This document shows positions 5,809-36,860 of a stretch of 63,198 nt of DNA, one piece after another (the stretch's first letter is position 1; each line of letters starts with the position of its first letter). The translations under genes and the position numbers were made by a program. The DNA comes from a virus (lineage: Duplodnaviria; Caudoviricetes). Under the pieces are notes generated by a model that did no database searches, was not told where the DNA came from, and saw only the letters and a list, made by a program, of their open reading frames with translations. The stretch spans positions 1-63,198 of IMG/VR virus record IMGVR_UViG_3300035136_000041. One strand, 5' to 3'.

Positions 5809-6249
5809 GTGGCCTACGCAGTGCAGTCAGATCTTGAGAAGTATTTTGGGGAAGAGCAACTTCTGATTGCCGCCGACCGCGAGGGATCTGGCTCTTTGTC
5901 CGATCCTACCGTCGTTGAAGTTATCGAAGCTGGAATTACAGCCGCAGAGGAAGAGATCGACTCGTACTTAGCGGTACGTTACGATCTGCCCCTTGCTGCA
6001 ACTCCAGGAGTTCTCAAACGCGTCTGTTGCGATTTGGCCATGTATCACATGAGCACGAATCACCCGTCGATGTCTGAGGATAAGGAGACGCGTTACAACA
6101 ATGGTGTGAAATGGCTTGACAGATTGTCCAGAGGCGTGGTCTCGCTCGGCGTTGAAGAAGCCGAGGTGGTTGTTCAGGATGAGCCTGAGATTGCATCTAC
6201 TAGCGAGACTAGGATATTTTCCCGCACGAAATTGGCAGGGCTGCTATGA
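5809..6249 (+). CDS. Mu gp36-like head-tail connector (DUF1320-type)
   Basis: MAYAVQSDL...EIDSYLAVRYDLPL...CCDLAMY...RY...WL...G.VSLG. Confidence 0.9.
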   Translation: MAYAVQSDLEKYFGEEQLLIAADREGSGSLSDPTVVEVIEAGITAAEEEIDSYLAVRYDLPLAATPGVLKRVCCDLAMYHMSTNHPSMSEDKETRYNNGVKWLDRLSRGVVSLGVEEAEVVVQDEPEIASTSETRIFSRTKLAGLL

Positions 6250-29879: not shown

Positions 29880-30712
29880 CACCAATTAACCTCGTCTTCA
29901 TCAGTCGGCGTGGGCGGCTCGTCATCAGCGGGCTTTGACGGCTCTGTCTTCGGTGGTGGTCCCTTCGCTTTCTTGCCTACCTTCTGAACACCTTCTTTTG
30001 GTTCCGTCGTTGGTAAATCCAATTGTGCATCTTCGGTTTTATCAATGGGAGCCTCGGTGCTTTTGTCGCGCACGACCTTATGCAGCCCCTCGCGCAACTC
30101 GTCACCCCCCCCGTCCCAATGCGGAGTCACATTGACGATGTCACGTTCCTCTTCAACAACGCGCATACCGCGCAGTTTATCGGGAAAAGCATCGCGTAAT
30201 GCAAAAGCCCTAGCGCGCATCTGGAGCATACGCCATGGGTAATTGTTCCAAGTATTCTTTCCCCAAAGTCCAGCCGTTTTTGCATCATCTATTGTGAATG
30301 AACGTGTAACTGGCACCTTGCCACGACGCTTGGCTGTACAAGTAGCCTTGCCAGTCTTCTTGATCTCCTCGAAGTCATCCTCAATAATGTCTTCGCATTC
30401 CGGATCCGATTTGATGAGTGCCAACATCGCGTCACCCCACAGTGAGGGCCGCCCATTGATTACCGCGATGTTTTGGATCGCAGCCATCGGCGTAAGCCCC
30501 ACCTCAGCGCCCATTTGCATAGCCACGAGGATTGCACCTGGGTTGCCGACATAGTCTTTAGGGACCATTCCGCTATGGGCGATGATCTTGGCACACTCGA
30601 TAGCCTCTTGGAGATTACCCGGCCTCATCATACCAAATGAGTCCAGACCGACAGGCATCGCTTCACGTTTTTGCAGTGCCTTCTCTTCTTGTTTGGTTGG
30701 TTTGTCTGACAT
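29879..30712 (-). CDS. RecT-like single-strand annealing recombinase
   Basis: GAEVGLTPMAAIQNIAVINGRPSLWGD, AKTAGLWGK..W..YP.RMLQMRAR.FALRDAFPD. Confidence 0.88.
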   Translation of the reverse strand: MSDKPTKQEEKALQKREAMPVGLDSFGMMRPGNLQEAIECAKIIAHSGMVPKDYVGNPGAILVAMQMGAEVGLTPMAAIQNIAVINGRPSLWGDAMLALIKSDPECEDIIEDDFEEIKKTGKATCTAKRRGKVPVTRSFTIDDAKTAGLWGKNTWNNYPWRMLQMRARAFALRDAFPDKLRGMRVVEEERDIVNVTPHWDGGGDELREGLHKVVRDKSTEAPIDKTEDAQLDLPTTEPKEGVQKVGKKAKGPPPKTEPSKPADDEPPTPTDEDEVNW

Positions 30713-30721
30713 GTGTGTCTC

Positions 30722-31801
30722 CTATGATTTGCTGACCTTGATTCGTGGCTTGGTGACCTTCTCCACGGCTCCGACTTCGCAAAGCCGCTCCAGTGTTTCC
30801 CTCATGTAAGCCGCCGCTTTGCCTTTGGGAGCTCTTCCTTTCAGGACTTCCTGCAACCCTGATTTAGTAATCTTGAGAGCGATATTAACCTCATCCTTGG
30901 TGAGTTTCAACTCTTCTCTGAGGATGCGCATGGCTTTTGACGGCCTGATATAGTCTTGTTCCTGTTGGTCGATCGTAATCTCTCTACCGTCTGAGGTCAC
31001 AACCGGCCCGCTGGCGATCATGGATTTGAGGACCTTATCATAATGCCGCAATGCTCTTCCTATAACACGCGAACGATCGTATAGGTCAGCAATGACTGTT
31101 GGTGTGATTGACGACTCATCATCGATTGCCTCCAAAGCCGTGATACCTGAGCGAGTCCACTCGTCCTTGGCTCGACAATTCATCTGTCTGGGACAGTACC
31201 GGCAGGCATCATAGCTCGGACCATACCGATTGGGGTCGGCCACTTGAGCGAGTAATTCATCGCGTAGCCTGTCGAGGTCTTCGTCGCGGAACTTGTGAAT
31301 GCGAACCTCGCCTATTCGTACCCAGACTTCGGCCCCTAGGATGTAACCACGATCTGGCATACCATGCATATCGCGTAGCAAATAGGCATAGCTGCGAATC
31401 TGATTTGGATGCTCTGATGGACTCCAACCGAACTTCCAGTCGAGCACCGCATGTCCTGCTACACTGACAAGATCTGATGTTCCTCGTAGAGTGACTTCGT
31501 CAGATAAATCAGCAGCCATATGGCATTCGCACTCAGCTTTTGGATACCACTTTGAAAGCCATTCCCAAGCCTCTTTAGCGCGCCTAGCCATACCGACAAG
31601 CACGTCTGGATCAACACCGTAGATGTCAGCCGCTTGGTCTATGGTGGCCCCAAATCCGGTTATTAACCGAGGCATGCACGCATGGCCAGCAGTGCCCTCG
31701 ATTGCTTCTGGATCGTTTGGCGAATACGGCGCGTCTGTTGGGATGAGACTTCCAGCACAGTGAAGTGCACGATCTGTCGAGCTGGATCTGACCGTTGTCA
31801 T
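30722..31801 (-). CDS. PD-(D/E)XK nuclease (DUF2800/Cas4-like exonuclease)
   Basis: SS..RALHC, AIEGTAGH, LRGTSD, VLDWKFG, QIRSYA, CRYCP...C. Confidence 0.82.
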   Translation of the reverse strand: MTTVRSSSTDRALHCAGSLIPTDAPYSPNDPEAIEGTAGHACMPRLITGFGATIDQAADIYGVDPDVLVGMARRAKEAWEWLSKWYPKAECECHMAADLSDEVTLRGTSDLVSVAGHAVLDWKFGWSPSEHPNQIRSYAYLLRDMHGMPDRGYILGAEVWVRIGEVRIHKFRDEDLDRLRDELLAQVADPNRYGPSYDACRYCPRQMNCRAKDEWTRSGITALEAIDDESSITPTVIADLYDRSRVIGRALRHYDKVLKSMIASGPVVTSDGREITIDQQEQDYIRPSKAMRILREELKLTKDEVNIALKITKSGLQEVLKGRAPKGKAAAYMRETLERLCEVGAVEKVTKPRIKVSKS

Positions 31802-32817
31802 GACGCGTCACCTTTCTTGCTCAGCGCTCTCCACGCTTTCCAAAGCCTACGGATCGCTTCCTTTTCCATACGTCGCTTTGCTCTGTTATGTGCATGTGCC
31901 TTCGTCATCTTTTCATTTCTCTCAAGCTCGTAAGCTTTCCGCGCATCATATATACGTCGGAATTCACCAGCATCTTCGCCCTTCCCCTGACCCTTTATCA
32001 GGCAATCACCAAGCGTCCACACAGCCGACCTCCTGGTTGGAGAGTACCCCATTTCAATCGCCAGCTCTTTATCCAATGTTTTGCACTGCCGCTTCCCCTT
32101 AATGACTGCCAATCCGAGTCGCTTCCAGACTTTAGCAGGATTCGCATACAGAGACAAGTCTCCTGTCTCACCAATGATGCATGCCAAATTTGTGTGCCCG
32201 AACCCTTTCACGGTGTCGACCCACGAGCAGACGGGGAGCTTGGCGGCAAGTTTTGTCATGTCGGCACGCAATCGTTTCTCGGAGCGGTTGATTGTATCGC
32301 GAGCTTGGAACATTGGCTTGCACCAGAGATAGGCCTTGGCAGCAACGGCGTGATGGTTAACACTGTTCTCATGGCCGCCAAGGCCTTCCTGGTTGGCGGC
32401 AACCGCGGAATGGTTAACATTGAGCTCCTGGCCGCCAGGATCCTTATGGATCGCACAGAGCTCTCTATACAGATCGTCTGCGCGTTTCAATCCGGCTTTG
32501 TCATTCTTGCCTTTGACATCGACAAATCGCCGACAAACGGCTTTGACGCGATTGGTAAGTGCGACCTGTATTCTTACGAGATCATTGCGTTGAGCCTTTA
32601 GCTCGCGCAACGTTTCACAGATAGATCCGAGCCCGTCGGCAACTACGGAATGGGCAACACTGCTCGTATGACCAACGGGCTCGGAAAGGTTTTCTGGTTG
32701 AGACATGGCTCGGCTGGTTTGCACTTCCTCAACGGTCTCGCCAGAATCTAGATTGTTTTGAGCAGACATGCTCTGCATGGTGTTCACCGTGTGCTTGGTC
32801 TTACTCAAAGCTTTCAT
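31798..32817 (-). CDS. Nop-domain/IS110-related RNA-binding protein without nuclease domain (TasA-like)
   Basis: AGGAG before ATG; coiled coil LRELKAQRNDLVR..LTNR; WVDTVKGFGHTNLACIIGETGDL..YANPAKVWKRLGL; YDARKAYE...KAHAHNRAKRRMEK; no DEDD RuvC, no catalytic Ser motif; adjacent and embedded guide-like array. Confidence 0.82.
   Translation of the reverse strand: MKALSKTKHTVNTMQSMSAQNNLDSGETVEEVQTSRAMSQPENLSEPVGHTSSVAHSVVADGLGSICETLRELKAQRNDLVRIQVALTNRVKAVCRRFVDVKGKNDKAGLKRADDLYRELCAIHKDPGGQELNVNHSAVAANQEGLGGHENSVNHHAVAAKAYLWCKPMFQARDTINRSEKRLRADMTKLAAKLPVCSWVDTVKGFGHTNLACIIGETGDLSLYANPAKVWKRLGLAVIKGKRQCKTLDKELAIEMGYSPTRRSAVWTLGDCLIKGQGKGEDAGEFRRIYDARKAYELERNEKMTKAHAHNRAKRRMEKEAIRRLWKAWRALSKKGDAS
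32331..32810 (-). ncRNA. TIGR-like stem-loop guide units embedded in the Tas CDS (5 units: 32331-32386, 32387-32440, 32626-32685, 32692-32746, 32756-32810)
   Basis: Each is stem + CCA/TCA/CCG + 9 nt + TGNNNNCCA + 9 nt + TG + complementary stem on the minus strand. Confidence 0.8.
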
Positions 32818-32837
32818 CTTTTTCTCCTAGGCTGAGG

Positions 32838-33135
32838 TTCTAGTGAGACATCATTGACATGGGTAACATTGATCTATAGGTCTCACCAGAAGCCCATTCA
32901 TCATACCACGAAGTTTTGGTGATTGCAATCTCCTAATGGGCATCACGTCAAGTTTGGCAATCACCAATTCATCAACCACCTGGTTCAACAACAGAACATC
33001 GGCGGGCATCACGACTGTGTTGGTCGTCGAGCCAGGCGGCAATCCTTCCTTGGTTTACACTGCCTTACTGACCGCCTAGCTCGACTGACTAATGCACCGC
33101 TACTGTGGGTTACATTCCCCGAGTGGCATTAGTCA
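32838..33135 (-). ncRNA. TIGR-like stem-loop array upstream of Tas (5 units: 32838-32891, 32916-32967, 32979-33036, 33026-33085, 33086-33135)
   Basis: Same 32-nt core; loops TGTTACCCA, TGATGCCCA, TGATGCCCG, TGTAAACCA, TGTAACCCA; 9-14 bp closing stems with G-U pairs favouring the minus strand. Confidence 0.85.
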
Positions 33136-33632
33136 CATCTTGCCTCTTTCTTAAGGCGTTTTAAATCACCCTCCGTGAATACTGCACCAACTACTTTATT
33201 GTCCGGCATCTTATCTGCAATCAACGTGAGCCACTTCGCTCGTCGTCTTTTGCTGTCTGCAATACGGTTGTATAATGCAGCCGTAGCTACAACGTCACCC
33301 TTCATTGCGTGACCTAGTGGCAATCCATCGAGCAATCGAAAACCCATCAGCGAGTCAGCGGCGAATCGAAGTCGCGCCCCACATTGATCTTGTGCAGGTT
33401 CCGATTGGCGAACAGGTTTAGATGATTTCCCAGTTGGGGGGGTGGCAAAGTTCTCGATAGCCAGCTGGCATGCCTGCCTAAGGAACGGCTCGGTCAACAT
33501 CCGCCAGAGCAATTTGTCTTTGCGAGCTTCACTCTCGAGCCGATCAACGGCGTCTTGTTTAGTCTTGGTCCTCTTGATCGCAGTCGATATGTAACGCCGC
33601 AGATAGACTTCGTTCGCATCGTCTGTCGCCAT
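33129..33632 (-). CDS. Hypothetical protein heading the TIGR-Tas operon
   Basis: AGGAG before ATG 33632; its stop codon lies in the stem of the first guide unit. Confidence 0.7.
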   Translation of the reverse strand: MATDDANEVYLRRYISTAIKRTKTKQDAVDRLESEARKDKLLWRMLTEPFLRQACQLAIENFATPPTGKSSKPVRQSEPAQDQCGARLRFAADSLMGFRLLDGLPLGHAMKGDVVATAALYNRIADSKRRRAKWLTLIADKMPDNKVVGAVFTEGDLKRLKKEARCD

Positions 33633-33781
33633 GATCGCTCCTGAGCTGTAAAACTGCATGACTGGTGATCGCCGCTAGTAGCACCCAAGATCACCAGTCA
33701 GGCAGACCTACTGCCATTGGAATACGATGTACACTACAACTCCATTTTGGCTCCTCTCGTCTTTTTAAGTTTGTTTCATGC

Positions 33782-33810
33782 ACTGTGACCTACCGCTCGC
33801 GAGATGTCAA
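33782..33810 (-). promoter_or_regulatory. Leftward promoter for the TIGR/recombination operon
   Basis: TTGACA-N17-CACAGT on the minus strand. Confidence 0.5.
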
Positions 33811-33904
33811 GCACAAAATCTCTGTGTGAGGATTTCGTCTCGTAACATTTATATAGACGCTCACACTAGGCCGATCTACGCTCGCATCTTTTTTTTCAGG
33901 ACGC

Positions 33905-33934
33905 TTGACAAGCAGATTCGCATGTGTCTAAATA
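33905..33934 (+). promoter_or_regulatory. Rightward promoter for the XRE/ParB/helicase operon
   Basis: TTGACA-N18-TAAATA. Confidence 0.5.
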
Positions 33935-33953
33935 TCGTCGACAGGAGGATGTT

Positions 33954-34178
33954 ATGAGTCTCGAAGATATGGGCGAGACAGTTAGGGTTGTCCGAATTAT
34001 GAAGGACATCTCAATCAGGGAAATAGCTCGCCGAGCAGAAACAAATCCCAACACAATCCTTAATCTCGAGAGCACCGGAGCAGTGACACTCAAGACGCTG
34101 CTCAAGGTGGCGAAGGCTCTGAAAATTAAGGCAAGCGACCTCACTCGCATCGCGGAGAAAAATCATGGAAAAGCGTAA
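33954..34178 (+). CDS. XRE-family HTH regulator
   Basis: ISIREIARRAETNPNTILNLES...TLKTLLKVAKAL; AGGAGG before ATG. Confidence 0.88.
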   Translation: MSLEDMGETVRVVRIMKDISIREIARRAETNPNTILNLESTGAVTLKTLLKVAKALKIKASDLTRIAEKNHGKA

Positions 34179-35145
34179 GACGGCAATTGTCAACCCGAAG
34201 GATCTTATTCCTCCAAAGGGGCATGTGCTCAATGCTGATGTTGTAGATTCGATTGCCGAGTCGATCAGCAAGGTTGGACTTCTACAACCGATTGCCATAG
34301 TTGGACGTCACATCAAGTATGGTGTCCATCGTTGGGCTGCGGTGATGAAGCTCGGATACGAGGAGATAGAAGTGATTCGGGACAGAAAAGTTGAGACTGA
34401 CGACGAGCACGATGCGCAAGTTATCGTCGAGAATCTCTGTCGGCATCACTACAAGGGTCAAAAACTGGATGACATGCGCAAGCGGCTCGTAGATCTCTGG
34501 GAGCCTCAAATCGCCCAGGAGATGAAGATTTCGCAAAAAGACACAAATATTGCCAAACCACAAGATGATACCGGTGATGGGCAAAAACGATCGCCAGGGA
34601 GAAAAAAGACAGCCCGCGGCAAAGCCATCAAACAAGTAGCAAAACAAACTGGCACCACCGAGGGTGCCGTCAAAGAATCAGTGAGACGGGCAAAGGCCGC
34701 CGAAGCCGGCGTCACCCCCAAGCAGCCAGACGATCCACCACCGTTAGATGAGCCGGAGGTCACCGTCGACGACTACGGCACCGAGATCCCCGAGGGCGAG
34801 GTCGGCAGGTGGAACGAAGCTCGACAGCTGCTCGACGAGCTCGACAGCATCATGCGTGGAGTACAAATCAAGCTCGGCGAACTCGTCAAGATCAAGGGGA
34901 TGCCCTACTCGGTGGTGAGCGATCTCGACAAGCGTGCACAGCAATTCGCTGAGCTCGCTCAGAAGTACCATCCGGTGGCTCTATGCCTCGAGTGCAGCGG
35001 TACGGGCAAGAACCCAAACAACACCAACGGGTGCACTCATTGTGTGGGAGTCGGCTTCATCGCTGAGGTTAACTACAAAGCTCAGACGAAGCCAGCCACC
35101 GTCGAGGAGGAACCAACCTTCACCGAAGACGACCTGGACTGGTAG
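34165..35145 (+). CDS. ParB/Srx-like protein with C-terminal Zn finger
   Basis: IAESISKVGLLQPI...GVHRWAA...VENLCR; CLECSGTG...CTHCVGVG. Confidence 0.8.
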   Translation: MEKRKTAIVNPKDLIPPKGHVLNADVVDSIAESISKVGLLQPIAIVGRHIKYGVHRWAAVMKLGYEEIEVIRDRKVETDDEHDAQVIVENLCRHHYKGQKLDDMRKRLVDLWEPQIAQEMKISQKDTNIAKPQDDTGDGQKRSPGRKKTARGKAIKQVAKQTGTTEGAVKESVRRAKAAEAGVTPKQPDDPPPLDEPEVTVDDYGTEIPEGEVGRWNEARQLLDELDSIMRGVQIKLGELVKIKGMPYSVVSDLDKRAQQFAELAQKYHPVALCLECSGTGKNPNNTNGCTHCVGVGFIAEVNYKAQTKPATVEEEPTFTEDDLDW

Positions 35146-35147
35146 CT

Positions 35148-36860
35148 ATGTCCTCGCAAGCCGATCTATTCAATATAGCTGCTAGTGAGCCAGAGCAGCT
35201 ACCTGAGCCTGAGGTTTTTCAGCCAGCTCAGCAACTACGCGACTACCAAATCGAGGCGGTCGAAGCTGTCGAGAGAGAGCTGCAAGAGAATCGGGGGACG
35301 CTTGTCCTCTGCGCCACCGGATTAGGCAAGACGAGCTGTGCGGCAGAACTCATCCGCCGATCGAAAGGGCGTTGCCTATTTGTTGCCCACCGTGATGAGC
35401 TCATTCAGCAGGCTGCTACTCGTATCGAGCAATTTACCGGCGAGTGGCCGGATATCGAACAGGCGCAGGCGAAGGCTGATGCTCGTGGCGGCAAGCATGT
35501 TGTCGCATCTGTCCAGACTCTGAGCCGGAAGAAACGACTTGAGCGGTGGGATCCGAGCGAGTTCGGGCTGATAATCGTCGATGAATGTCACCACGCCACA
35601 GCGAAAACCTATCGGCGCATCATCGATTACTTCGATGGGAAGGTGGTCGGCCTTACTGCTACCGGAGATCGAGCCGATAGAGTGTCTCTCGGTCAAGTGA
35701 TGGACTCGGTCGCGTATCGATACGAGATCAACGATGCGATTCGAGACGGGTGGCTGTGCGAAATCGTGATGAAGACGATCCGTGTTGGGTCCCTCGATTT
35801 CTCGAAGCTCCATACGGTAGCTGGCGATTTCAATCAAGGGGAGCTTGAGCAGCTCATGCAGCTCGAGCAAAATCTGCATGCGGTGGCCAAGCCCACCGTC
35901 GAGTGTTCTGGTGATCGCAAGACTGTTGTTTTTACGACTTCAGTGGCTCATGCGGAGCGGCTGGCTGAAATTATCGATAGGTATGCTGGCGATGGCTCCG
36001 CGAAAGTAATCCATGGTAGCACCCCAAAAGAACTTCGGAGATCAATCCTACGAGAATTCGATAGGGGCGATTTCCAATACCTGACTAATGTCGGCGTGCT
36101 TCTCGAGGGTTGGGATTCACCAGGCGTGTCATGTGTCAGCATGGCTCGCCCAACAAAGAGTCGAGCCCTGTTCGCTCAGGCTATAGGACGTGGGACTAGA
36201 GGCGGAACTCTCTGCCCTGTCGAAGGTAAAGACGATGGATTACTCGTCCTAGACTTCGTCGGCAACTCCGGCAAACACGAGCTCGTCTGCACAGCCGACA
36301 TCCTCGGCGGCAACGTCTCCCCCGAAGAGCTCGAGATAGCCAAGAAACTGATCGAGAAGTCCGACAAACCGAAGTCAATCGACGAGGCTGTCGAAGAAGC
36401 CAAGGCTAAGATTGCACACGACTTGAGCGAAGCCGCAAAGCGCCGGCGCTCCAATATCGTCGGGGAAGTCGAATACGACGTCAAGGACTTCAATCCATTC
36501 ACCATGTTCAGGGTCAGGCGCGACTACCTCACCGAGAGACACGGCATAGCGCCGGCTACTGAAAAGCAGATGCAAGCAATCACCAAGTGGATGGGAAAGC
36601 ACGGCAAGCACGCCCCAGCGAATCTCTCGAAGAGCGAAGCCTCAAAGCTACTCGCCGAGTTCGCTAGCCGTAGAGAGAAAGGCCTAGCCACCTACGGCCA
36701 AGTGAAATTCCTCGCGACGAAGAAGCTCGATGCGCGTGGTTGGAGCTTCCATCAGGCCAGCCAATTGATCACGTGGATTTCTTCACATGGATGGATTAAT
36801 CCTCCGCCGAGCGTGGTAGCATCAATCACCAGGGGGCGAGAGCCAGGAGAAGACGGATGA
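35148..36860 (+). CDS. Superfamily II DNA helicase
   Basis: LRDYQ, ATGLGKT, VDECHH, GLTAT, LLEGWD, QAIGRG. Confidence 0.93.
   Translation: MSSQADLFNIAASEPEQLPEPEVFQPAQQLRDYQIEAVEAVERELQENRGTLVLCATGLGKTSCAAELIRRSKGRCLFVAHRDELIQQAATRIEQFTGEWPDIEQAQAKADARGGKHVVASVQTLSRKKRLERWDPSEFGLIIVDECHHATAKTYRRIIDYFDGKVVGLTATGDRADRVSLGQVMDSVAYRYEINDAIRDGWLCEIVMKTIRVGSLDFSKLHTVAGDFNQGELEQLMQLEQNLHAVAKPTVECSGDRKTVVFTTSVAHAERLAEIIDRYAGDGSAKVIHGSTPKELRRSILREFDRGDFQYLTNVGVLLEGWDSPGVSCVSMARPTKSRALFAQAIGRGTRGGTLCPVEGKDDGLLVLDFVGNSGKHELVCTADILGGNVSPEELEIAKKLIEKSDKPKSIDEAVEEAKAKIAHDLSEAAKRRRSNIVGEVEYDVKDFNPFTMFRVRRDYLTERHGIAPATEKQMQAITKWMGKHGKHAPANLSKSEASKLLAEFASRREKGLATYGQVKFLATKKLDARGWSFHQASQLITWISSHGWINPPPSVVASITRGREPGEDG

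What the first reader, a model, noticed from the sequence alone, without database searches (positions are those of the whole stretch)
32331..32817. Guide units encoded in frame inside the effector's own coding sequence
Seen: a strong ribosome-binding site (AGGAG) precedes ATG 32817. Three units encode about the first 60 residues (KTKHTVNTMQSMS, GETVEEVQTSRAMS, VGHTSSVAHSVVAD), where IS110 and TasR carry a RuvC domain. Two more form an in-frame insert of about 37 aa within the coiled coil (GGQELNVNHSAVAA, GGHENSVNHHAVAA). The units use two different codon phases and none introduces a stop. Inference: the mRNA is both message and pre-guide, so processing the guides would destroy the message and give negative autoregulation; spacer evolution would also be limited by the reading frame. 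I do not know of this arrangement being characterised.
Basis: partly seen in the sequence, partly recalled or inferred. Interest (0 to 1): 0.9.

Follow-up and report, generated by a model that had tools for sequence, protein, structure and literature searches.

The report
Guide RNAs written inside phage tasA
A wetland phage has an RNA-guided DNA-binding system (TIGR-TasA) in which five of its ten hairpin guide-RNA units lie in frame inside the gene for the protein that uses them; this is real, but a 2026 preprint already described the layout, so it is a new example of a known kind.

Summary
ORF 31798-32817 (-) encodes a nuclease-less Tas protein. It matches TIGR-TasR 9MTY by sequence (E 5e-9), and the ten best PDB fold matches are all TasR or TasH. 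Ten hairpin units lie at 32331-33135 on the gene's strand. Each reads variable stem / CCA-N9-UG-N4-CCA-N9-UG / stem, which is the published stem-loop tigRNA plan. Five units are upstream of the start codon and five are inside the CDS. Three fill residues 1-61. Two form an insert of about 37 aa between the coiled-coil helices. They sit in two codon phases and none has a stop in frame. The stems covary. Relatives keep the RNA motif but change the spacers, the peptides and the unit number, always in frame. The unit-encoded peptides are predicted to be disordered.

The claim that the arrangement is uncharacterised is out of date. Xu et al. (bioRxiv 10.64898/2026.09.09.750476, Sept 2026) report in-frame intragenic stem-loop tigRNAs, with small-RNA-seq evidence for BlTasA. 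This scan has already logged the same layout in at least eight other genomes. Autoregulation remains untested.

The parts
31798..32817 (-). tasA: 339-aa Tas protein with a Nop fold and no nuclease domain. The core is residues 62-125 and 152-339. Residues 1-61 and 126-163 are encoded by guide units.
   Evidence: Sequence match to 9MTY (TasR), E 5.2e-9, over aa 176-332. The AF2 model has pLDDT above 90 in the core and 40-55 in blocks 1-60 and 131-150. The ten best Foldseek hits are all TasR or TasH, followed by IS621/ISCro4 and Prp31/Nop5. Pfam gives only a weak Transposase_20 hit, E 0.024.
32824..32828 (-). Shine-Dalgarno AGGAG, 6 nt before ATG 32817. It lies in the roughly 20-nt linker between units U5 and U6.
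   Evidence: L001 has the same layout: GAGGA, six bases, then ATG 3007 between two units.
33086..33135 (-). U1, intergenic unit with a 10-bp stem. Its 5' arm overlaps the stop codon of the upstream ORF.
   Evidence: 41.0 bits.
33026..33085 (-). U2, intergenic unit with a 15-bp stem.
   Evidence: 46.2 bits.
32985..33030 (-). U3, intergenic unit with an 8-bp stem (14 of 15 pairs if extended). It shares bases with the 3' arm of U2, and its central box is CCG.
   Evidence: 22.7 bits.
32916..32967 (-). U4, intergenic unit with an 11-bp stem.
   Evidence: (I14); 42.5 bits.
32838..32891 (-). U5, the last intergenic unit, with a 12-bp stem (17 positions with one mismatch if extended). It ends a few bases before the RBS.
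   Evidence: (I4); 43.4 bits.
32758..32808 (-). U6, intragenic, residues about 4-20. The stem is interrupted (4 bp, internal loop, 5 bp). Codon phase 3.
   Evidence: 31.6 bits. The stem beyond the first 4 bp is my reading of the flanks printed.
32692..32746 (-). U7, intragenic, residues about 24-42. The stem is interrupted (5 bp, internal loop, 6 bp), and the 5' box is CCG. Codon phase 3.
   Evidence: 32.9 bits. The stem beyond the first 5 bp is my reading.
32626..32685 (-). U8, intragenic, residues about 45-64, with a perfect 15-bp stem. Codon phase 1.
   Evidence: (I7); 45.5 bits.
32394..32437 (-). U9, intragenic, with a 7-bp stem, in the insert between the coiled-coil helices. Codon phase 1. 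It is a 57-nt tandem paralogue of U10.
   Evidence: (D2, 75% identity); 41.7 bits.
32331..32386 (-). U10, intragenic, with a 13-bp stem, in the insert between the coiled-coil helices. Codon phase 1.
   Evidence: (I9); 49.4 bits, the best of the ten.
33129..33659 (-). Context: the 176-aa ORF at the head of the operon. It is a conserved same-strand upstream neighbour of this TasA clade.
   Evidence: tblastn finds a homologue in 30 of 116 unique tas loci that have at least 700 nt of upstream flank. All 30 are on the same strand and upstream. No Pfam, PHROG, PDB-sequence or Foldseek match.

Best explanation
This is a stem-loop TIGR-TasA system of a phage whose guide array runs straight across the start codon and into the tasA reading frame.

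The array. Ten units sit on the sense strand. Each would fold into a hairpin with a variable stem and a 30-nt loop. The loop holds two 9-nt spacers, each bounded by box C (CCA) and box D (UG).

Expected function, by homology. The units are transcribed within the long minus-strand early operon, cut out by a still unknown RNase, and loaded on a TasA dimer. The two spacers then pair with opposite strands of an 18-bp DNA target. The result is binding and repression without cleavage, because the protein has no nuclease domain.

The intragenic units. The five units inside the CDS are also translated. They survive there because they fall where the fold tolerates disordered peptide: the N-terminal tail that replaces RuvC, and the segment between the two coiled-coil helices. 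They also keep the frame. Unit spacings are 63 and 57 nt; one 64-nt spacing shifts the phase between U7 and U8. None carries a stop in frame.

What is shown and what is inferred. Shown here: the protein fold and family, the unit architecture, stem covariation, strand specificity, in-frame placement, and conservation of the RNA motif with turnover of spacers and peptides in relatives. Inferred from published relatives: expression, processing, TasA loading, and DNA binding or repression. Any feedback between guide maturation and TasA translation is only conjectured.
For: Protein.
- phmmer hit to 9MTY, E 5.2e-9. Faure et al. 2025 name 9MTY as the TasR RNP model (passage seen).
- AF2 model with pLDDT 84. 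Foldseek ranks 1-10 are all TasR or TasH chains, followed by IS621/ISCro4 and Prp31/Nop5.
- No RuvC or HNH match in Pfam.

RNA units.
- All 10 units read C|CA-N9-UG-N4-CC(A/G)-N9-U|G. Columns C11, T22, G23, C28, C29, T40 and G41 are invariant.
- Faure 2025 defines CCA as box C and UG as box D, and describes stem-loop arrays as two 8-12-nt spacers flanked by these boxes inside variable palindromes.
- Xu 2026 gives a loop of mostly 9 nt between the spacers. Here UG+N4+CCA is 9 nt.
- Stem covariation passes with 0 of 500 shuffles reaching the observed value. The ungapped stems hold 104 Watson-Crick pairs, 13 G-U pairs and 4 mismatches. G-U pairs fit an RNA of the sense strand. No plus-strand match in 31000-34500 scores above 10.4 bits.
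- The 851-nt region folds with z = -6.67.

In-frame coding.
- Phases and absence of stops.
- U9 and U10 lie between helices H107-125 and H152-191, both with pLDDT above 90.
- The insert is absent from most of the 19 homologues aligned. P0001 and P0002 have two units and P0003 has one.
- In L001 the ORF from ATG 3007 contains 2 N-terminal and 2 internal units with different spacers.
- In 101 unique loci the tas frame is open for a median of 70 codons upstream of the core, against 9 and 14 in the other two frames. It is the longest of the three in 90 of 101.
- Of 182 model hits in 69 loci (not deduplicated), my approximate sorting puts 72 in the open N-terminal frame, 28 internal or at the C-terminus, 63 upstream, 16 downstream and 3 straddling.

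Spacer turnover.
- Against P0001, identity is 235/248 in the core, 32/36 in stem-encoded residues and 18/40 in spacer-encoded residues.
- A second, low-depth 151-nt contig in run X1 differs at 20 places within 32302-32452. The 18 differences that one search lists lie within 32341-32420, and by my mapping most of them fall in the U9 and U10 spacers.

Literature. Intragenic, in-frame, disordered-region stem-loop tigRNAs, and TasA acting as a repressor, are described in Xu 2026 (sections 5, 11 and 13).
Against: - I found no RNA evidence for this phage. No RNA run is listed, which says nothing either way. Transcription, processing and loading are therefore assumed from relatives.
- U6, U7 and U9 have interrupted or short stems, and U6 and U7 score about 10 bits below the rest. 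Some intragenic units may be decaying.
- I found no convincing target. Within the contig the best match to a spacer pair has 2 mismatches, where 0.16 such hits are expected by chance. The host genome is unknown, because the 'genome' is this contig alone.
- The CUU processing motif reported by Xu 2026 lies within about 20 nt of the loop in only 7 of 10 units. I estimate about half would have one by chance, so this is inconclusive.
- Translation of the first 61 residues rests on the RBS, the open frame and comparison with relatives, not on protein data. P0001 and P0002 were called by their sources with other starts.
- In GC-rich relatives a unit outside the gene is stop-free in a given frame about 68% of the time. 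Open frames through single units are therefore weak evidence there.
Confidence: 0.85

Rival explanations
1. The first reader's mechanism, which can coexist with the main reading. Guides are embedded in the message for regulation. TasA either binds U5 and U6, which flank the RBS and ATG, and blocks initiation, or cutting out U6-U10 destroys the tas mRNA. Either route gives negative feedback on TasA and on the translationally coupled genes downstream.
For: The RBS and ATG lie in the roughly 20-nt linker between U5 and U6, and L001 has the same layout. The tas stop overlaps the start of the PD-(D/E)XK gene as ATGA at 31798-31801. No intergenic space for a promoter is left between the upstream ORF and U1, so co-transcription is likely. 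Xu 2026 raises the same possibility.
Against: Nothing here measures RNA or protein. Xu 2026 states that independent promoters inside tas cannot be excluded. One promoter-like site lies inside the array at 32928->32900 on the minus strand, although such sites are no more frequent than in shuffles. Many relatives keep all their units outside the CDS, so embedding is not required for function. Tolerance of insertions in disordered segments explains the data without any regulatory role.
Confidence: 0.25
2. The intragenic units, or at least U6 and U7, are relics. They are duplicated array units that slid into tolerant, disordered coding segments and no longer yield working guides.
For: U6 and U7 have interrupted stems and the lowest scores among the well-formed units, 31.6 and 32.9 bits against 41-49. 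U7 has CCG at its 5' box. U9 and U10 are a 57-nt tandem duplication at 75% identity. The stems of U5 and U7 look alike in the flanks printed, which suggests spread by local duplication.
Against: U8 and U10 have perfect 15-bp and 13-bp stems, and U10 is the best-scoring unit of all. The UG boxes and the central CC are invariant in all five. L001 keeps well-formed units at the same places with different spacers. Spacer-encoded residues turn over while stem-encoded ones are kept, 32/36 against 18/40, which points to selection on the RNA. BlTasA intragenic units are processed and bound (Xu 2026).
Confidence: 0.12
3. Only the internal pair, U9 and U10, is truly coding. Translation starts downstream of U6-U8, so the 'N-terminal' units are 5' leader and the open frame there is fortuitous.
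For: Homologues without units start about where residue 62 of the window protein aligns. P0002 was called from a later ATG than the longest ORF in L001. In-frame ATGs exist at codons 14, 17 and 38.
Against: The frame opens 9 nt before ATG 32817, which has AGGAG at ideal spacing. I saw no comparable Shine-Dalgarno sequence before the later ATGs when reading. L001 has the same RBS, ATG and unit layout. Only 4 of 15 frames are open in the intergenic units U1-U5, yet all three of U6-U8 are open in frame. The tas frame is preferentially open upstream of the core in 90 of 101 loci.
Confidence: 0.12
4. The repeats act at the protein or the DNA level and not as RNA: a low-complexity peptide repeat, or palindromic DNA sites for a recombinase.
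For: The peptides share a pattern of the G-G-H/Q ... V-N-H ... V-A-A kind. The protein is distantly related to IS110 recombinases.
Against: The same units occur upstream with stops in all three frames (U1 and U5). The conserved peptide letters are those dictated by the CCA and UG boxes. The motif is strand-specific: 176 of 176 hits in other loci are on the tas strand, and no plus-strand match in 31000-34500 scores above 10.4 bits. The 13 G-U pairs would be mismatches in the other strand. The protein has no RuvC/DEDD domain.
Confidence: 0.03

Closest known systems
Bifidobacterium longum TIGR-TasA (BlTasA) and the TIGRFinder survey of stem-loop arrays inside tas (Xu et al., bioRxiv 10.64898/2026.09.09.750476; I read sections 5, 7, 11 and 13)
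   Same: A nuclease-less TasA with stem-loop tigRNA units both upstream of the CDS and embedded in it. The reading frame is kept and the embedded units fall in disordered segments. The idea that maturation and translation may be coupled is raised there too.
   Different: In BlTasA the internal units map to the wedge loop. Here they lie between the two coiled-coil helices. I infer this is the 'tip' segment from the TaTasR segment limits quoted together. Here a further three units make up the whole N-terminal tail, so half the array (5 of 10) is coding. I found no expression data for this phage. I could not see that paper's figures or supplementary table, so I cannot tell whether this very contig is in their set.
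Peromyscus leucopus gut-metagenome TasA (PlTasA) with a stem-loop array (Faure et al. 2025, PMC12045711, section 9; Guan et al. 2026, bioRxiv 10.64898/2026.08.11.744272, section 5)
   Same: A coiled-coil plus Nop protein without a nuclease. Each hairpin unit has two 9-nt spacers bounded by box C and box D. The N-terminal segment is disordered; it is unresolved in the cryo-EM maps.
   Different: The PlTasA array is described as three intergenic subarrays, with no intragenic units mentioned in the parts I read. No PlTasA chain appeared among the matches listed.
TaTasR (PDB 9MTY) and SpTasH, the dual-repeat TIGR-Tas nucleases
   Same: The best sequence and fold matches. The same box C (CCA) and box D (UG) logic and the same 9-nt tandem spacers.
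   Different: They carry RuvC or HNH domains and cut DNA. Their arrays are fixed 36-nt dual-repeat units processed by a Tas Y/H dyad, which stem-loop clades lack according to Xu 2026.
IS110/IS621 bridge-RNA recombinases and box C/D snoRNP Nop5/Prp31
   Same: A shared coiled-coil plus Nop-like RNA-binding fold (Foldseek ranks 12-14, 21 and following, and 42; weak Pfam Transposase_20 hit).
   Different: There is no DEDD/RuvC domain and no transposon ends. The system has many tandem guides rather than one bridge RNA. I did not look for L7Ae or fibrillarin partners.

Membership tests
TIGR-Tas (stem-loop TasA subtype) | Effector with the Tas coiled-coil plus Nop fold | tested here: met
   phmmer hit to 9MTY, E 5.2e-9. 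Foldseek ranks 1-10 are TasR or TasH chains, all listed with probability 1.00. The model core has pLDDT above 90.
TIGR-Tas (stem-loop TasA subtype) | No nuclease domain (TasA rather than TasR or TasH) | tested here: met
   No RuvC or HNH hit in Pfam at E up to 1. Residues 1-60 are modelled without secondary structure, with pLDDT 40-51. Unit-free homologues start at the first coiled-coil helix.
TIGR-Tas (stem-loop TasA subtype) | Tandem units with two 8-12-nt spacers, each bounded by box C (CCA) and box D (UG), and a loop of about 9 nt between them | tested here: met
   10 of 10 units have two 9-nt spacers. UG is invariant at both places and the central CC is invariant. The 5' box is CCA in 6 units, TCA in 2, CCT in 1 and CCG in 1. 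The definitions are from Faure 2025 and Xu 2026.
TIGR-Tas (stem-loop TasA subtype) | Variable but consistently palindromic sequences flanking each spacer pair | tested here: met
   88% of cells are paired, 9 of 10 pairs show changes on both sides, and 0 of 500 shuffles reach this. Uninterrupted stems run 4-15 bp; U6 and U7 continue past an internal loop, by my reading of the flanks printed.
TIGR-Tas (stem-loop TasA subtype) | Array next to tas and on its strand | tested here: met
   All 10 units are on the tas strand within 320 nt upstream of the start or inside the CDS. The same holds for L001 and for 176 of 176 hits in other loci.
TIGR-Tas (stem-loop TasA subtype) | Units are expressed, processed into single hairpin RNAs and bound by Tas | not testable with these tools
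   No RNA run was listed. The contigs laid are DNA.
TIGR-Tas (stem-loop TasA subtype) | Conserved CUU at the stem base marking the processing site (Xu 2026) | tested here: inconclusive
   A CTT lies within about 20 nt of the loop in 7 of 10 units, at varying distances. By my estimate about half would have one by chance.
TIGR-Tas (stem-loop TasA subtype) | RNA-guided binding of DNA through both spacers on opposite strands | not testable with these tools
   The search for targets within the contig gave nothing convincing. The host is unknown.
IS110-family RNA-guided recombinase | N-terminal DEDD/RuvC catalytic domain | tested here: not met
   No such domain in Pfam. The N-terminus is disordered and made of guide units. 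Fold matches to IS621 and ISCro4 are weaker (E 0.02-0.04) than those to Tas proteins.

The most novel reading that the evidence does not exclude
Guide maturation and gene expression are physically coupled in this phage. The start signals of tasA sit in the 20-nt linker between two guide hairpins, five guides lie inside the message, and the tas stop overlaps the start of a PD-(D/E)XK exonuclease-RecT-SMC-like recombination module. TasA loading or excision of guides would then throttle both its own synthesis and the early recombination operon. A secondary strand: new guides arise by local in-frame duplication and divergence, as with the U9/U10 57-nt tandem and the U5/U7 look-alike stems. That would bear on the open question of how TIGR arrays gain spacers.
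Probability: 0.2. Interest if true: 0.6.

Novelty: new member of a known kind. Interest (0 to 1): 0.3.

Why it matters
DNA that is both a guide RNA and protein-coding sequence of the guide's own effector is unusual. It constrains how spacers can evolve and offers a built-in route to feedback. That idea is now in print for this family, so the value here is as a clean, compact natural example. A 63-kb phage contig holds ten well-formed units, half of them coding. A close relative (L001) carries different spacers at the same sites. The start signals are sandwiched between two hairpins. This makes a convenient test bed for asking whether maturation and translation are coupled, and for studying spacer turnover under a reading-frame constraint. 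It does not change what is known about the kind.

Tried and rejected
- Rfam scan of 30000-36000 at E up to 1: no family matched.
- Tandem Repeats Finder on 31500-33700: nothing found, because the units are too divergent.
I therefore have no DNA for P0001 or P0003 and compared them as proteins only. The contig of P0002 was reached through the search for related loci instead (L001).
- Search for targets within the contig, in both possible geometries (A followed by the reverse complement of B; the reverse complement of A followed by B), with gaps of 0-2 nt. This gave 10 hits at 3 or fewer mismatches, 2 of which are the array matching itself. The shuffled-spacer mean is 2.42 (maximum 7). There was 1 hit at 2 mismatches (U7, 6142-6160) against 0.16 expected. 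I judged this unconvincing. I did not scan public collections for 18-nt targets, because I estimated that chance matches would swamp them; Xu 2026 says the same.
- RNA evidence: no RNA holder was listed. The two DNA runs were laid as contigs only.
- Stop-codon test on units in other loci: the sorting into 'inside' is circular, and the baseline openness of 0.68 is high in GC-rich loci, so I give it little weight.
- CUU motif: inconclusive.
- Promoter and terminator scan: the counts do not exceed shuffles.
- Upstream 176-aa protein: no Pfam, PHROG, PDB-sequence or Foldseek match.
- Complex prediction of the TasA core (residues 61-339) with that protein returned 'no answer'. This is evidence neither for nor against binding.
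- Loci left out: one search got 79 of the 80 viral loci (L002 was left out as a copy of L001). One search got 72 of the 80 metagenome loci. L082, L090, L103, L107, L110, L122 and L126 were left out because they looked like copies of viral-collection loci. L144 was left out without a good reason.
- None of the 41 loci whose match starts at query residue 77 gave a model hit at E up to 0.01. I did not look into why.
- Supplementary files of the papers were closed. Supplementary Table 1 of Xu 2026 and their TIGRSafari resource might list this contig.
This call is the same report with that field added.
Full report
**What is there.** The finding lies in ORF 31798-32817 on the minus strand, which is 339 aa. 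AGGAG sits six bases before ATG 32817, and the frame opens only 9 nt upstream of that ATG. The repeat finder showed a series of inverted repeats with 30-32 nt between their arms. Four are upstream of the ATG and at least two are inside the ORF, together with a 57-nt tandem repeat at 32336-32449. A hairpin scan and a loop-motif scan resolved these into ten units, U1-U10, at 32331-33135. All ten are on the minus strand. Of 47 loop-motif matches in the whole 63,198-nt contig, only these ten have a flanking stem.

**Anatomy of a unit.** Each unit is a variable stem enclosing a 30-nt loop that reads CA-N9-UG-N4-CC(A/G)-N9-U. The last stem base before the loop is C or U, and the first after it is G. 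Each 9-nt variable stretch is therefore bounded by CCA-like and UG motifs. Faure et al. 2025 (PMC12045711; I read section 9 and found passages) name CCA as box C and UG as box D. They describe stem-loop TIGR arrays as two 8-12-nt spacers flanked by these boxes within variable palindromes. Xu et al. 2026 (bioRxiv 10.64898/2026.09.09.750476; I read sections 5, 7, 11 and 13) give a mostly 9-nt loop between the spacers. Here UG+N4+CCA is 9 nt.

The stems differ between units but stay complementary. 88% of cells are paired against 55.7% in shuffles, and 37 cells changed on both sides against 14.5; 0 of 500 shuffles reached these values. The ungapped stems hold 104 Watson-Crick pairs, 13 G-U pairs and 4 mismatches. 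A covariance model built from the ten units scores them at 22.7-49.4 bits on the minus strand. With filters off, every other match in 31000-34500 scores 11.1 bits or less (E 0.19 or worse), and no plus-strand match exceeds 10.4 bits. With default filters, one 12.8-bit hit (E 1.4) turns up elsewhere in the window. These ten are the model's own training set, so the independent evidence comes from other loci, described below.

**The protein.** Pfam gives only a weak Transposase_20 hit. phmmer against PDB sequences finds 9MTY at E 5.2e-9 over residues 176-332. Faure 2025 names 9MTY as the TasR RNP model. An AlphaFold2 model built from a 78-row alignment has mean pLDDT 84. The pLDDT is above 90 for residues 61-125 and 152-339, and 40-55 for blocks 1-60 and 131-150. 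The ten best Foldseek hits in the PDB are all TasR or TasH chains, followed by IS621/ISCro4 recombinases and Prp31/Nop5. There is no nuclease domain, so this is a TasA.

**In-frame placement.** U6, U7 and U8 encode residues of about 4-64. U9 and U10 encode about 126-163, between helices H107-125 and H152-191. In U6 and U7 the first loop base is codon position 3, and in U8-U10 it is position 1. The loop-to-loop spacings are 63, 64 and 57 nt, and the 64-nt step explains the phase change. None of the five has a stop in the ORF frame. U1 and U5 have stops in all three frames, and only 4 of 15 unit-frames of U1-U5 are open. The insert sits between the two long coiled-coil helices. I take this to be the 'tip' segment, using the TaTasR segment limits quoted in Xu 2026 and the 9MTY alignment; this mapping is my inference.

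**Relatives.** One search found 219 homologues at E up to 0.001 among 1914 candidates. In a 20-sequence alignment, the N-terminal extension is present in full only in the window protein and in P0001 (87% identical). P0002 and P0003 have a shorter one, and most others begin at the first coiled-coil helix. The internal insert has two units in P0001 and P0002, one in P0003, and is absent from most of the rest.

The related phage locus L001 encodes P0002. The model finds six units there: two intergenic, two just after ATG 3007 (which has GAGGA six bases upstream), and two internal. All have the boxes and stems, but their spacers differ from the window's. Against P0001, identity is 235/248 at core residues, 32/36 at stem-encoded residues and 18/40 at spacer-encoded residues. 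The homologues therefore keep the RNA motif and let the peptide drift.

In 151 further tas loci (79 viral and 72 metagenomic; the loci left out are listed under Tried and rejected), the model gave 111 and 65 hits at E up to 0.01. All 176 are on the tas strand. My approximate sorting of 182 hits in 69 loci, not deduplicated, puts 72 in the open N-terminal frame, 28 internal or near the C-terminus, 63 upstream, 16 downstream and 3 straddling. In 101 unique loci the tas frame is open for a median of 70 codons upstream of the core, against 9 and 14 in the other frames, and is the longest in 90 of 101. A weaker test showed that in these mostly GC-rich loci a unit outside the gene is stop-free in a given frame about 68% of the time. 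Openness through one unit therefore proves little there.

**Context.** The 'genome' is this contig alone. The locus sits in a minus-strand operon. A 176-aa ORF comes first, and its stop codon lies in the 5' arm of U1. Then come the array, tasA, a PD-(D/E)XK nuclease whose ATG overlaps the tas stop as ATGA, a RecT-like protein, an SMC-like ATPase and DUF5131. A Cro/C1-type HTH gene, a ParB_N-like gene and a helicase run divergently from 33924.

**What could not be shown.** No RNA run was listed. Laying the two DNA runs showed the locus unchanged in pieces of a second sample. It also showed a second 151-nt low-depth contig in the probable source sample, with 20 differences within 32302-32452. 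The 18 differences that the call lists lie within 32341-32420, mostly in the U9 and U10 spacers by my mapping. I found no convincing target for any spacer pair in the contig.

**Comparison with what is known.** Xu 2026 states that stem-loop arrays can lie within the tas CDS at the 5' end, the 3' end or internally without disrupting the frame, typically in disordered regions. The same paper reports that BlTasA tigRNAs embedded in the CDS were recovered by small-RNA-seq of the RNP, and that this may link maturation and translation. It also cautions that promoters inside tas are not excluded. A full-text search for tigRNA plus intragenic returned that paper only. A search for TasA, TIGR and autoregulation returned nothing relevant. 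This scan has logged the same layout in at least eight other genomes, with the same verdict.

**Verdict.** The structural reading is supported. The claim of novelty is not, and the autoregulation idea is untested. This is a new member of a known kind, of modest interest.

Noticed in passing
window 33129-33659 (-): The 176-aa ORF at the head of the operon has homologues directly upstream of tas, on the same strand, in 30 of 116 unique tas loci that have at least 700 nt of upstream flank (25-57% identity). The other window neighbours recur in only 0-2 loci. The protein is all-helical (pLDDT 84.7) and has no Pfam, PHROG, PDB-sequence or Foldseek match. Faure 2025 says TasA has no clear protein associations apart from a ParB-like gene, and I found no mention of this neighbour in the parts of the papers I read. 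It is a candidate accessory factor.
   Followed up: partly
window 33126-33135 and 33023-33040 (-): The 5' arm of U1 contains the stop codon of the upstream ORF. L001 has the same layout, with the ORF ending at 2886 and the first unit at 2884-2933. U2 and U3 share arm bases, so the two hairpins cannot both form fully.
   Followed up: partly
window 31798-31801: The tasA stop and the start of a PD-(D/E)XK nuclease gene overlap as ATGA. RecT-like and SMC-like ATPase genes follow. Among the fetched loci this nuclease neighbour recurs only in L001/L002.
   Followed up: partly
window 32336-32449 (-): U9 and U10 are a 57-nt tandem duplication at 75% identity, with diverged spacers (D2). The stems of U5 and U7 also look alike in the flanks printed. 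This suggests that units multiply by local duplication and then diverge.
   Followed up: no
window 32302-32452: Run X1, the probable source sample, holds a second 151-nt contig at depth 3.6 with 20 differences from the window. The 18 that the call lists lie within 32341-32420, mostly in the U9 and U10 spacers by my mapping. This probably reflects a co-occurring strain variant.
   Followed up: no
window 34165-35145 (+): A ParB_N-like gene (E 1.4e-4, below the Pfam cut-off) lies divergently, about 1.3 kb from tasA, and is also present in L001. Faure 2025 reports ParB-like genes in operons with some tasA genes. Here the gene is on the other strand, so this is not the same arrangement.
   Followed up: no
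window 33660-33699: A palindrome just upstream of the 176-aa ORF gives weak model hits on both strands (11.1 and 9.5 bits). It has a stem but not the loop motif. It may be an operator or terminator in the divergent promoter region.
   Followed up: no
loci L100, L104, L108, L111-L113, L115-L120 and others (41 loci): A clade of tas loci whose match starts at query residue 77 (about 38% identity) gave no unit hit at E up to 0.01 with this model. They may have a different unit geometry, or no array within the flanks fetched.
   Followed up: no
window 6142-6160 (-): The best match in the contig to any spacer pair is U7 with 2 mismatches and a 1-nt gap, in the reverse-complement-of-A then B geometry. 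The chance expectation is 0.16 such hits. This is probably chance.
   Followed up: partly
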